Assembly (NCBI RefSeq): GCF_054482595.1 | Contig: NZ_CM137008.1 | DNA length: 64,000 nucleotides | Direction: 5' to 3' (one strand) | In this document: in pieces, positions 18,001-21,000 of the stretch | How positions within the stretch are numbered: position 1 is the stretch's first letter | Layout: every line of letters begins with the position of its first letter | Position numbers: made by a program

Positions 18001-21000
18001 CTTTAAAGAATTTGCGGTCTGCTTCGGCAGCTTTGCATTCTCGACTCTTCATAGTGTGGCCTTATTGAACGGAATCTCAAACTGCCATCAGGGTAATTCG
18101 AACTGAGCAGGTTTGAGAGCATTCGAGCAAGGTAGCATAACAATTTTAAGATAAAAACCTTACTTATCAACTAACTGCGTTCATATTCTGAACGCAGTAG
18201 TCGTTGTTAACTTAAAGGCATGAGAACACTGTCGTTTTTCATATACAAAGGGTGCTTCGGCTCACCTGTAGCGATTCAGAGAAAGCACATGGTGCTATCT
18301 GGTAAAGCCGTCAGCCAGCCTAATATGTCTTACCACTTTTGAGCGCCAACAAACGACCGTTTTCTGGCACCTTTCGATCGCACACTTTCACACTGTTGGA
18401 AAATTAGCCTTGGCTTTTCTGGCAGGCCATCCTAAGTTGACACCGTTTTCTGGCAGGGGCCGGAAGAGGAGATGACTATGGCGATTTTTGGCTACGGGCG
18501 CGTTTCGACATCGCAGCAGGATACTGAGAACCAGCGTTTGGAACTTGAGCAAGCTGGATGGACTTTCGACTTTTGGTTTACTGATGTTGTTAGCGGGAAG
18601 GTTCCTGCGCTGCAACGCAAAGCGTTTTCCGAAATGCTCAGCAAAATCCGCGATGGTGAAACGCTGGTTGTTGCCAAACTCGACCGACTGGGACGCGATG
18701 CGATTGATGTTCTCCAGACTGTCAGGGCGATGGCCGAGCGTAATATCAAGGTCATTGTCCACCAGCTTGGCACAACGGATCTCTCCTCTGCTGCCGGTAA
18801 ACTTCTGTTGTCGATGCTGTCAGCAGTTGCGGAGATGGAACGTGACCTACTGATTGAGAGGACCCATGCGGGTTTGTTGCGGGCAAAAGCTGAAGGCAAG
18901 AAGCTGGGAAGACCGTCGAAAATCGCCCCAGAAGTCCATAGGCTGATTATTGAGAAAAAGAATAATGGAGCCAGTGTCAGCGCACTAGCGAGGGAGTATG
19001 GCGTTTCCAGAGCGACTATAGCTGCACTATTAGATTATTAGCAATTTAGATTTTTATTACAACTTCTGAATGGCAAGAGTGCTAATCTTGGAGAGTAAAA
19101 GCCCCCAAATGGGGGCTAAGTTAATAACTAATAATGGACGTTTGCGATGAATTGAGGGAGAAGTTCTTTAAAATCATCTCTATACATATCCATATCACTC
19201 TGGAAACGAGAGATTATTTCTGTAATTTCTTTGCTTTTGGATAATCTTCCTGCTGTAGCTGGTTCTAACAGTGCAGATCTTGTTAATACCCTTTTTATTA
19301 CAGGGATCCATAACTCCTTCGCATTTTCTCTATTGACGCCATCTTTGAAGGATAATGAATATTTATTAGGTATCGCTGAACCTAATATTATTTCCAATAT
19401 GCTTGCTATAGCATGAATCATTAACAGTGATACGCCAGGTTGGGTCAATAGCTTATGTTTAATAGTATCTATTTCAGGAAGCTGGTTATGCCTAAATTGT
19501 TCATTAAAATCCGATTTTATCTGGCTTATAGCTTCATTTAAAGAATAGACAAAGATAATATGACCTAGAGTAATTGTATCATCAAAAGCCTTTTTATAGA
19601 GATCCTCATCATCCCAAATATCTTTTTTTCGATGATATGCACTTGTAGGATGAGCATGAAAAGCGATCAGGATTTGTGCAACTGTATCCGTTGGTAATAA
19701 AATTCTTTTTTGAGCCGGAGTTAACACTTGGCGAAGGCCACCTGTATATAAAGCTTCCTTATTTTTCTCGAAATCCTTTCTTAATCTTTTTTGTATAGAA
19801 TCACTGGAGCGAAAATCTGAGCGCAAGACCTTGTTTTGTGAATTATTCGCTAGAGTGATTTCATTAATTAGTTCGGGATTATTAACTCTTATGAACCTAA
19901 TTGCAACTCTTAGCGTATCATCTGGATCTTTCCCTAAATTTGAAATACTACCAGTAGTTTGAGCACCATTGACAATAGAAATACCAGTAACACTTTTAAT
20001 TTGACCGAGTGTTTTGGATTCGTCAATGAAATCAATTTCAAAATCATGGACTAAGGCAGTGATTCCGTTATTAAATACAAAGAAATTTCCTGGGTGTGTT
20101 TTAGCCGTGTTTTGTATTTCATTATTTATTGAGAGGTCTTTTTTATTACTTCCTAAATAAGACCTTACATTAGCGCTGAATAGTTTATCTTCACCGTAGC
20201 TATTATATAGTTCTTTAATAAATTTCCCTGGCATAAGGGTAGAAAATGAGGCCCAGTTTTCATTAGAGTTTTGATAAAAGCCATGCATACCAGTCAGCGA
20301 TATTTTATCTGATATCAAAATTGGACTGTGTTGAGAGTTATATAATTCATCAAGTGAACTTAAACCCATTTGCTTGGAGCTTATTCTCAGGTTATCAATA
20401 TGATAAATTGAGTTTAATTTGTCCATAATTGAACGCCCAATCGAATGTAAAGGTTTCTCACATTCTGGTGTTTCAGGGCAGTTATGAACAAACCATACAT
20501 TTATTTTCTCAATTTCATTATTTCTTAAAGCATCTCTTGCATCTTTTACCTGATCCCTTATCCTCAGAGGTATATTCTCTATATCAGCGGAAAGCAACGC
20601 GGTTTCTGCATAAGCTGTTTCTTGGGCCTTAGACGGCTTGGCCCCTTGAGGTCGAAATATAGTAGATTGATAAGATTGTATAAGATATATTTGTTTGCTT
20701 TCTCTATCGGTCATTAATATGTCTATATTTTCATCATCTCCCCCTTCAGTTATTATGTCGGGAGCTATCAATTCAATGCTGTCTATATTGTTATGTAACT
20801 CTATTGCATATAATGCACAATTTAAATTACCATATTTTTCTAGATCTTTTCTCTGTTGCAATGCTGACCAGAAAGAACTATCTGAAAGCTGTGTATATGT
20901 CATGATAAAACCCTTTTTATTAATATGTAAATTTTATCTCATTCTATCTAAAATCATTTTTTTATATCTAATGATATAACATTAAATGTATGTGAAATAT

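What the first reader, a model, noticed from the sequence alone, without database searches (positions are those of the whole stretch)
18358..18455. Triplicated TTTTCTGGCA motif upstream of the serine recombinase gene
Three direct copies of a 10-12-bp motif within 100 bp, ending about 20 bp before the recombinase start. This could be a res-like binding-site array, an autoregulatory operator or a crossover site.
Basis: seen in the sequence. Interest (0 to 1): 0.35.

Follow-up and report, generated by a model that had tools for sequence, protein, structure and literature searches.

The report
Resolvase res site in genomic island
The three repeats are half of a six-part docking site (a "res" site) for the neighbouring resolvase enzyme. 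It is a familiar kind of DNA-sorting switch, found here in a widespread, uncharacterised family of small E. coli genomic islands that carry variable defence-type genes.

Summary
TTTTCTGGCA occurs exactly at 18360, 18415 and 18446, and this is the only stretch of the 64-kb window with a 10-mer present three times within 100 bp.

The three copies are not a simple direct-repeat array. They are the gene-proximal half-sites of three inverted-repeat subsites:
- Site I, 18344-18369: half-sites of 10 bp around a 6-bp centre.
- Site II, 18394-18424: 10-11-10.
- Site III, 18425-18455: 10-11-10.

Together they form a ~112-bp Tn3-like res site upstream of a small serine recombinase (18478-19041). Among solved structures this protein is closest to gamma-delta/Tn3 resolvase.

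In about 78 of 82 related sequences (80 fetched loci, recombinase 60-91% identical) the layout is kept almost gap-free. The half-site motif switches by lineage (..CTGGCA, ..CTAACA, ..TGAACA, ..TCAACA) in all subsites together, and with residues 182/183 of the recognition helix. Catalytic residues are invariant.

There is one res per genome, in 744 of 5426 E. coli genomes, and no inverted partner, so an inversion switch is excluded.

The most likely function is resolution of island or plasmid multimers and cointegrates, with crossover at the AC centre of site I, plus self-repression. SGI1 Res/res is the experimental precedent. This is a new member of a known kind. Binding and catalysis are inferred, not shown.

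The parts
18344..18455 (+). Complete predicted res site (112 bp; 114 bp if one flanking base is added on each side, as in the 28-bp convention for Tn3 site I).
   Evidence: Six half-sites at fixed spacing are conserved in about 78 of 82 aligned upstream regions. Column conservation peaks at the half-sites and at the site I centre, and is low in the I-II spacer.
18344..18369 (+). Site I, the predicted crossover site. I-L is CGCCAACAAA (18344-18353, inverted orientation). The centre is CGACCG (18354-18359).
   Evidence: It is an imperfect palindrome that matches itself on both strands and occurs nowhere else in the window. A half-site weight-matrix pair scan finds it in every enteric locus. Relatives have near-perfect versions, for example L029 TGTTAGAAAA CGATCC TTTTCTAACA.
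18356..18357 (+). Predicted crossover dinucleotide AC at the exact centre of site I.
   Evidence: This is inferred from geometry: serine recombinases cut a central 2-bp stagger. The centre columns are 72-99% conserved across 80 loci. SGI1 boxI also has an AC centre. It was not tested experimentally.
18370..18393 (+). Spacer between sites I and II (24 bp; 22 bp in the 28-bp convention). Its sequence is variable but its length is conserved.
   Evidence: The length is 22-24 bp in all aligned loci. Per-column conservation is only 32-64%.
18394..18424 (+). Site II. II-L is TGTTGGAAAA (18394-18403). The spacer is TTAGCCTTGGC (18404-18414).
   Evidence: The spacer is 11 bp (12 bp in one enteric subtype). 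The TA at 18405-18406 is 99% conserved.
18425..18455 (+). Site III. III-L is GGCCATCCTA (18425-18434), weak here. The spacer is AGTTGACACCG (18435-18445).
   Evidence: III-L abuts II-R in all loci. It is a strong half-site in the TGAACA class, for example TATATGAACA in L038, L070, L074 and L075. In enterics it is weak; only GCCA is kept.
18410..18438 (+). Putative recombinase promoter: -35 TTGGCT (18410-18415), a 17-bp spacer containing copy 2, and -10 TAAGTT (18433-18438). Copy 3 would lie near +1.
   Evidence: This is an inference. TAnnnT occupies the -10 columns in 51 of 80 loci, and a TTG lies within 1 column of the -35 position. The consensus scan reports the equivalent TTGATT-17-TATATT in L038. 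It reports nothing in the window, L002 or L040.
18466..18471 (+). Shine-Dalgarno-like GAGGAG, 6 nt before ATG 18478.
   Evidence: Read directly from the sequence.
18478..19041 (+). Small serine recombinase (187 aa), resolvase type.
   Evidence: Pfam Resolvase 3.6e-36, plus HTH_7 at 23.4 bits, just under its 23.8-bit cut-off. Full-length match to gamma-delta and Tn3 resolvase, E 3e-26 and 1.5e-24. Y6, R8, S10, D36, D69, R70, R73, E127 and R128 are invariant or nearly so in 82 relatives.
18210..18305 (-). Remnant of the divergently transcribed DUF1643 cargo gene, which adjoins site I in intact relatives.
   Evidence: A tblastn match of 32 aa at 81% identity. The gene is intact in L002, L004 and L084. 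PGAP annotates a pseudogene here.

Best explanation
The 112-bp stretch 18344-18455 is the res (resolution) site of the adjacent small serine recombinase. It contains three dimer-binding subsites, and each subsite is an imperfect inverted repeat of a 10-bp half-site.

Inferred mechanism, by analogy with Tn3/gamma-delta and SGI1: recombinase dimers fill sites I, II and III. Two directly repeated res sites arise when the island or a plasmid copy forms tandem arrays, dimers or cointegrates. They would synapse through the accessory sites II and III. Strand exchange would then occur at the central AC of site I and reduce the multimer to monomers. Occupancy of sites II and III, which overlie the likely promoter, would repress the recombinase gene.

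Shown here: the anatomy, its conservation, the co-variation of all half-sites with the recognition helix, the conserved catalytic residues, and the single copy number. Inferred only: binding, catalysis, the crossover point, repression, and the biological substrate.
For: 1. The gene is a resolvase-type serine recombinase with an invariant catalytic set in 82 relatives.
2. Six half-sites at fixed spacing are conserved almost without gaps in about 78 of 82 aligned upstream regions (80 fetched loci plus L002, L003 and the window), from Enterobacteriaceae to Pseudomonas, Massilia/Duganella and methylotrophs. The spacing is a 6-bp centre, a 22-24-bp gap, an 11-bp spacer, no gap, and an 11-bp spacer.
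3. The motif changes by lineage in all half-sites together (CTGGCA, CTAACA, TGAACA, TCAACA). It tracks residues 182/183 of the helix-turn-helix, which align with gamma-delta Y176/K177.
4. The order is site I distal and site III next to the gene. The I-II centre distance is 52.5 bp, against 51 bp in SGI1 and 5 helical turns as the Tn3-family rule. The site I centre is AC, as in SGI1.
5. There is one copy per genome in 744 of 5426 E. coli genomes, 7 of them on plasmids.
6. SGI1 Res/res shows experimentally that such a module in an integrase-bearing island binds, resolves, and removes island multimers.
Against: - No experiment exists on this protein or site.
- Site III (31 bp, abutting site II) does not have the Tn3 geometry of 25 bp after a 5-bp gap. 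Its left half is weak in enterics.
- The promoter-like hexamers are poor in the window (7 of 12) and the consensus scan misses them.
- No replication or transfer genes that would generate multimers were recognised in this ~10-kb island.
- The co-variation statistics are not corrected for phylogeny.
Confidence: 0.8

Rival explanations
1. The array is only an autoregulatory or cargo-regulating operator. The recombinase would have been domesticated as a repressor, and no recombination would occur at this site.
For: Sites II and III overlie promoter-like hexamers. There is only one res per genome, so no standing substrate exists. Tn3 TnpR was first named as a repressor.
Against: The catalytic residues, including S10, are invariant over 82 proteins down to 60% identity. 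The site I central hexamer is among the most conserved stretches of the res (72-99% per column) and is distal to the gene, which repression would not require. Hybrid site I sequences and sharp homology breaks at site I suggest past crossovers.
Confidence: 0.1
2. The array is a relic of a Tn3-family transposon that decayed inside the island and is no longer used.
For: The closest solved relatives are the Tn3 and gamma-delta resolvases. The res layout is Tn3-like.
Against: No Tn3-family transposase is annotated within 5-9 kb in the five annotated E. coli loci. None was found among the large ORFs sampled in five distant loci. The module is a conserved backbone element with intact half-sites and catalytic residues in 80 species-level loci, which a decaying relic would not be.
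Confidence: 0.05
3. The repeats are operators or iterons for another island protein, for example the Xre-type HTH protein encoded at 23511-23975.
For: That HTH gene is conserved downstream in the enteric islands.
Against: Most distant loci keep the full six-half-site layout without any homologue of that HTH gene within 4 kb. The motif class tracks the recombinase recognition helix. The paired inverted half-sites with 6- and 11-bp spacers are the geometry of serine-recombinase dimer sites.
Confidence: 0.03
4. The site is one end of an invertible DNA segment, a Hin/Gin-type switch.
For: NCBIfam's best, sub-threshold hit is an invertase family at 98.9 bits against a cut-off of 272.
Against: There is no inverted or second copy in the 64 kb. 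The median is one place per genome. Three subsites are a resolvase hallmark. Gin matches cover only the catalytic domain, whereas gamma-delta and Tn3 resolvase match at full length.
Confidence: 0.02

Closest known systems
Tn3 / gamma-delta res with TnpR resolvase
   Same: - A small serine recombinase with a C-terminal helix-turn-helix, matching at full length at E 1e-24 to 1e-26.
- A ~114-bp res made of three inverted-repeat dimer sites, with site III next to the gene and the crossover site I distal.
- Site I of 28 bp followed by a 22-bp spacer, in the same convention.
- An A/T tract on the inner side of each half-site and a conserved GRP arm motif in the protein (G144 and R145 conserved in at least 80 of 82).
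- Cargo genes adjoining site I, as for toxin-antitoxin genes in Tn3-family transposons.
   Different: - There is no transposase and there are no terminal repeats. The module sits in a tyrosine-integrase island at a tRNA gene.
- Subsite geometry differs. Here sites II and III are both 5 bp longer than site I and they abut. In Tn3, site II is 6 bp longer and site III is 3 bp shorter than site I, with a 5-bp gap.
- The centre is AC, not AT/TA.
- The half-site motif is TGCCAGAAAA.
SGI1 resolution system (Res/S027 and its restored res; PMC12217951)
   Same: - A resolvase and res inside an integrase-bearing genomic island.
- boxI of 28 bp followed by a 22-bp spacer, with an AC centre.
- An I-II centre distance of about 5 helical turns, and a promoter predicted over boxII.
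- boxI, read from the oligonucleotide list, is TGTTCAACAA CCACAT TTTCTTAACA. That is the same 10-6-10 layout, with a half-site close to the TTTTCTAACA class seen here.
- Binding, resolution and removal of island multimers were shown experimentally.
   Different: - SGI1 boxII is 30 bp and boxIII is 25 bp with a 2-bp gap. boxIII is barely symmetric.
- SGI1 is a 27-kb or larger mobilisable island with replication and transfer genes. The island here is about 10 kb with none recognised.
- Orthology of the two recombinases could not be tested, because no SGI1 sequence was reachable.
Hin/Gin/Pin DNA invertases
   Same: The catalytic domain is the same, and the crossover sites are of about 26 bp.
   Different: Invertases use two inverted single sites plus an enhancer and have no accessory subsites. 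Here there are three subsites and a single locus per genome.
Sin / beta recombinase res (two subsites plus an HU/IHF site)
   Same: It is also a serine resolvase with accessory sites that define topology.
   Different: Sin has two subsites, and its site II has directly repeated half-sites with a host bending-protein site. Here there are three subsites, each with an inverted left partner that is conserved across the family.

Membership tests
Tn3-type three-subsite res / resolvase module | An adjacent gene for a small serine recombinase (catalytic domain plus C-terminal HTH) with an intact active site. | tested here: met
Tn3-type three-subsite res / resolvase module | Three subsites, each an inverted pair of half-sites sharing one motif. 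| tested here: met
   for the sequence and its conservation. III-L is weak in the window but strong in the TGAACA-class relatives. Protein binding was not testable.
Tn3-type three-subsite res / resolvase module | Site III lies next to the recombinase gene and crossover site I lies distal to it. | tested here: met
   The order is I (18344), II (18394), III (18425), then ATG 18478. The rule is stated in the papers read.
Tn3-type three-subsite res / resolvase module | The distance between the centres of sites I and II is about 5 helical turns. | tested here: met
   The distance is 52.5 bp here. SGI1 has 51 bp, and the general rule is cited.
Tn3-type three-subsite res / resolvase module | The exact Tn3/gamma-delta subsite lengths: 28, 34 and 25 bp, with spacers of 22 and 5 bp. 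| tested here: not met
   Site I (28 bp) and the 22-bp spacer match. Sites II and III are both 31-33 bp and abut each other (compare).
Tn3-type three-subsite res / resolvase module | Promoters lie inside res and are repressed by the resolvase. | tested here: inconclusive
   There are weak, positionally conserved -35 and -10 hexamers. The scan is positive only in L038.
Tn3-type three-subsite res / resolvase module | The resolvase resolves two directly repeated res sites, with cleavage at the site I centre. | not testable with these tools
   This needs an in vivo or in vitro resolution assay.
Tn3-family transposon | A DDE transposase TnpA and roughly 38-bp terminal inverted repeats around the module. 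| tested here: not met
   No such gene is annotated in the five E. coli loci or was found in the sampled distant loci. Terminal repeats were not searched for.
Hin/Gin-type inversion system | Two inverted crossover sites flanking an invertible segment. | tested here: not met
SGI1-type island resolution system | A resolvase and res carried by a tyrosine-integrase island, with boxI of 28 bp, a 22-bp spacer and an AC centre. | tested here: met
   The integrase is at 14345-16288, next to tRNA-Gly at 14182-14255.
SGI1-type island resolution system | Orthology of the recombinase with SGI1 Res (S027). | not tested
   The SGI1 res sequence gave no match in the E. coli collection. No SGI1 protein sequence was at hand.

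The most novel reading that the evidence does not exclude
Site I of this res may be more than a multimer-resolution crossover. It may be the junction at which unrelated left arms, carrying defence-type cargo, have repeatedly been joined to a conserved resolvase core by resolvase-mediated recombination between res sites of different islands or plasmids. These exchanges would include sites of different binding specificity. That would make the module a platform for shuffling cargo among tRNA-integrated islands.

Support:
- In 18 of 21 enteric locus pairs that are at least 93% identical to the right of the site I centre, identity falls to random (24%) immediately beyond I-L. I-L itself is only 77% identical.
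- The DUF1643-type left flank occurs with both types of right-hand res, and so do other left flanks.
- Four loci have a site I whose left half belongs to another specificity class. They are L006, L041, L051 (identical to the enteric I-L of L007) and L063.
- The central hexamer is near-invariant family-wide, which would keep different res sites compatible for crossover.

Against:
- Homologous recombination anchored in the conserved core, together with selection to keep I-L, predicts most of the same pattern.
- The equally sharp right-hand break, inside the last codons of the gene, has no res-like site.
Probability: 0.3. Interest if true: 0.6.

Novelty: new member of a known kind. Interest (0 to 1): 0.38.

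Why it matters
- **Annotation.** It assigns a function to an unannotated intergenic region and to a gene labelled only "recombinase family protein". Both are present in about 14% of complete E. coli genomes, including O157:H7 EDL933 and ATCC 25922, and in many other Proteobacteria.
- **DNA recognition.** The family offers a natural series of matched protein and site specificity switches. Residues 182/183 track positions 5-8 of the half-site. This could guide re-targeting of small serine recombinases.
- **Island biology.** The module marks a conserved core flanked on both sides by hypervariable, often defence-type cargo. If site I is the exchange point, it would help explain how such islands swap cargo.
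- **Resistance spread.** An intact res is also a potential landing pad for res-hunting Tn402/Tn5053 elements, as happened in SGI1. No such insertion was looked for here, beyond noting that 741 of 744 E. coli copies are uninterrupted.

Tried and rejected
- **Second or inverted copy.** I searched for the motif, for site I, and for a site II-type pair in the window, and ran a weight-matrix pair scan in 24 loci. Only the res itself was found consistently. Apparent res-like fragments downstream of the gene in a few loci (L007, L011/L084, L003) did not pass the pair scan and are not consistent between loci.
- **Sigma-54 promoter (TGGCA).** Read directly from the sequence, the GG-to-GC spacing is wrong. 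The motif also changes to TAACA or GAACA in relatives.
- **Consensus sigma-70 scan.** It found nothing inside res in the window, L002 or L040, and one hit in L038.
- **Rfam scan of 17900-18600.** No match.
- **SGI1 res sequence.** I tried to fetch it from E. coli genomes to compare the proteins. There was no match. The boxI sequence taken from the paper's supplement is machine-read, and the two strands disagree by one base.
- **Island ends.** I looked for a direct repeat of the tRNA 3' end to define them. There was none of 16 bp or more; an IS1 interrupts the right end.
- **Literature.** Searches for DUF1643, DUF6538, leuX island resolvases and island res sites found no description of this island family.
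- **H60/L086.** It looked like an interrupted res that a res-hunter transposon might have caused. It is an IS-associated deletion.
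Full report
**Observation**

TTTTCTGGCA occurs exactly three times on the + strand, at 18360, 18415 and 18446. 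Copies 2 and 3 share 12 nt, and copies 1 and 3 share 14 nt. No other exact copy exists in the 64-kb window. Sliding 100-bp windows hold a 10-mer or 8-mer three times only at this place. The last copy ends 22 bp before ATG 18478. PGAP uses that start in identical E. coli records, and it aligns with residue 1 of gamma-delta resolvase.

**Context**

The window is E. coli chromosome.
- A tRNA-Gly(ccc) gene at 14182-14255 lies next to actS/ygeR.
- It is followed by a 647-aa tyrosine integrase (14345-16288; DUF6538 plus Phage_integrase) and a 71-aa ORF.
- Next come a 338-aa hypothetical gene on the minus strand and a ~100-bp remnant of a DUF1643 gene.
- Then come the repeats, a 187-aa serine recombinase (18478-19041), and a convergent AIPR (abortive-infection-type) gene.

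The recombinase has the Pfam Resolvase domain (3.6e-36) and a C-terminal helix-turn-helix. It matches gamma-delta and Tn3 resolvase over its full length (E 3e-26 and 1.5e-24). The Gin invertase matches only the catalytic domain.

**Anatomy**

Each of the three copies has an inverted partner to its left.
- Site I: CGCCAACAAA-CGACCG-TTTTCTGGCA (18344-18369).
- Site II: TGTTGGAAAA-11 bp-TTTTCTGGCA (18394-18424).
- Site III: GGCCATCCTA-11 bp-TTTTCTGGCA (18425-18455), directly abutting site II.

**Comparative test**

A scan of one genome per species returned 80 loci encoding relatives of the recombinase at 60-91% identity. They range from Enterobacteriaceae to Pseudomonas, Massilia/Duganella, methylotrophs and others. 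Aligning 200 bp upstream of the gene gave an almost gap-free block across the whole res in about 78 of 82 sequences. Read column by column, the six half-sites are present at fixed spacing: a 6-bp centre in site I, a 22-24-bp gap, an 11-bp spacer (12 bp in one subtype), no gap, and an 11-bp spacer.

The family consensus half-site is TTTTCTAACA. T3, C9 and A10 are at least 96% conserved in the five strong half-sites. The I-II spacer is only 32-64% conserved per column.

The variable positions 5-8 switch by lineage, and they do so in all half-sites of a locus together. The classes are CTGG in enterics and Pseudomonas, CTAA or CCAA, TGAA, and TCAA. In the TGAA class the weak III-L becomes a clear sixth half-site, for example TATATGAACA. 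Mutual information between positions 5-8 of any two half-sites exceeds all 500 permutations. That test does not correct for relatedness.

The recombinase recognition helix changes in step:
- Residue 183 is Arg in all 17 loci of the TGAA and TGGA classes, with Met or Leu at residue 182.
- Residue 182 is small (A, S, T or V) in all 15 loci of the CTGG class and 6 of 8 in the CCGG class.
- Residue 182 is Leu or Ile in the ..AACA classes.

By the alignment these residues correspond to gamma-delta Y176 and K177. From my own knowledge of the gamma-delta-site I structure, that helix reads the outer part of the half-site, and the conserved GRP arm reads the adjacent A/T tract. The arm motif is present here (G144 and R145 conserved in at least 80 of 82).

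The motif follows the recombinase, not the Xre-type HTH gene found downstream in enteric islands. Most distant loci lack that gene yet keep the layout. Y6, R8, S10, D36, D69, R70, R73, E127 and R128 are invariant or nearly so in 82 proteins, so catalysis is under selection.

**Comparison with known res sites**

Tn3 res is 114 bp with three dimer sites. Site III is next to tnpR, the crossover is in site I, and the promoters lie inside res and are repressed by the resolvase. [quoted passage not shown]

The restored SGI1 res is boxI 28 bp, a 22-bp spacer, boxII 30 bp, a 2-bp spacer, and boxIII 25 bp. It has an AC centre, a 51-bp I-II centre distance and a promoter over boxII. SGI1 Res was shown to bind it, to resolve cointegrates, and to remove island multimers from transconjugants.

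In the same convention the site here is 28 bp, a 22-bp spacer, 33 bp, then 33 bp abutting, for 114 bp overall. Its centre is AC and its I-II centre distance is 52.5 bp. SGI1 boxI, read from the paper's oligonucleotide list (TGTTCAACAA CCACAT TTTCTTAACA), has the same 10-6-10 layout and a similar half-site. That text is machine-read and slightly inconsistent between the two strands.

The order, site I, the I-II spacing and the centre therefore match. The geometry of sites II and III does not match Tn3. There is no Tn3 transposase nearby. I file this as a res/resolvase module of the Tn3 type, not as a Tn3-family transposon.

**Copy number and rivals**

The 125-bp res region is present in 744 of 5426 complete E. 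coli genomes, with a median of one place per genome and 7 places on plasmids. It also sits in the leuX islands of O157:H7 EDL933 and of ATCC 25922.

Neither the window nor the loci hold a second or inverted site. An inversion switch is excluded, and the system can act only when the element is duplicated, as a tandem array, dimer or cointegrate. No Rfam family matches the region. A sigma-54 reading of TGGCA fails on spacing and on the motif changes seen in relatives.

**Regulation**

TTGGCT (18410-18415), a 17-bp spacer, and TAAGTT (18433-18438) form a weak promoter-like pair. Copy 2 lies in the spacer and copy 3 lies near +1. TAnnnT occupies the -10 columns in 51 of 80 loci. The consensus scan finds the equivalent TTGATT-17-TATATT in L038, but nothing in the window, L002 or L040. 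Self-repression is therefore plausible by analogy but only weakly supported.

**Boundaries**

The conserved core runs from I-L to just after the recognition helix, about 690 bp. Both flanks are hypervariable.

Among enteric loci, 18 of 21 pairs that are at least 93% identical to the right of the site I centre are unrelated (24%) beyond I-L. I-L itself is 77% identical. For example, L007 and L018 differ at one position in 120 bp to the right, but at -4 and from -13 outward to the left. The DUF1643-type left flank, with its own I-L variant GCGCCA.., occurs with both right-hand res subtypes. Four loci have a site I whose left half belongs to another specificity class.

This pattern fits past crossovers at site I, as described for Tn3-family mosaics. 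Homologous recombination in the core, together with selection on I-L, could also give most of it. The equally sharp right-hand break has no res-like site.

Genes adjoining site I in distant loci are defence-like (a ResIII helicase, HsdR, an SMC/AAA ATPase), with HipA on the other side.

**Verdict**

This is a previously undescribed but conventional res site, so it is a new member of a known kind. No paper on this island family was found. Binding, catalysis, the crossover point and repression remain to be shown experimentally.

Noticed in passing
window 18174-18198 (and 18143-18170 on the minus strand): There is a perfect 10-bp palindrome, ACTGCGTTCA-tattc-TGAACGCAGT, conserved in L002 and L003. 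It lies next to a promoter-like TTGATA-16-TAAAAT on the minus strand, facing the 338-aa hypothetical gene. It could be the terminator of the DUF1643 gene or an operator.
   Followed up: no
window 18210-18305 (-): The DUF1643 gene that adjoins site I in relatives is reduced here to a ~100-bp remnant. It is intact in L002, L004 and L084, and is replaced or joined by a NUDIX gene in L003.
   Followed up: partly
window 19000-19041 and the equivalent in L002-L022, L084, L085: Homology between loci breaks inside the last few codons of the recombinase gene, just after the recognition helix. As a result the C-terminal tails differ (…AALLDY, …AAIFE, …ATISAV, and so on), and the downstream cargo is unrelated between loci.
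   Followed up: partly
window 19128-20903 (-); L021 764-3883; L038 1270-3660 and 4688-5935; L023 1-2592: Genes flanking the res-recombinase core are often defence-type or toxin-type: AIPR, a ResIII/SNF2 helicase, a type I HsdR, an SMC/AAA ATPase and HipA. The core looks like an anchor between two cargo hotspots.
   Followed up: partly
window 18354-18359 and 18405-18406: The site I central hexamer CGACCG (72-99% per column) and a TA step in the site II spacer (99%) are as conserved as, or more conserved than, most half-site positions across 80 loci. They may reflect constraints on catalysis or DNA bending.
   Followed up: no
window 14318-14329 and 25047-25070: TCCTCCTACAAA lies 15 bp before the integrase ATG. 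It recurs twice in tandem (TCCTCCTACAAAACCCTCCTACAA) near the right end of the island, just before what looks like an IS1 end at about 25071. These are candidate integrase arm sites. No repeat of the tRNA 3' end of 16 bp or more was found.
   Followed up: no
window 21245-22518: ORFs that look like an IS2/IS3-family insertion sequence lie between the AIPR gene and the 283-aa ORF. They are absent from the otherwise identical island in strain THO-010, L001.
   Followed up: no
L084 (EDL933) 9001-9711; L085 (ATCC 25922) 9001-9702; L086: The same DUF1643-res-recombinase core sits in islands at tRNA-Leu (leuX), with a related large integrase. In isolate AHB10 (L086) the res is cut off within site II by an IS-associated deletion that removes the recombinase.
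   Followed up: yes
L002 3977-6368 (plasmid pYLMB10a): A copy of the 338-aa gene, DUF1643, res and recombinase block lies on an IncA/C-like plasmid between IS1 copies, interrupting the MobH relaxase region. On a plasmid the module would act as a multimer-resolution system.
   Followed up: no
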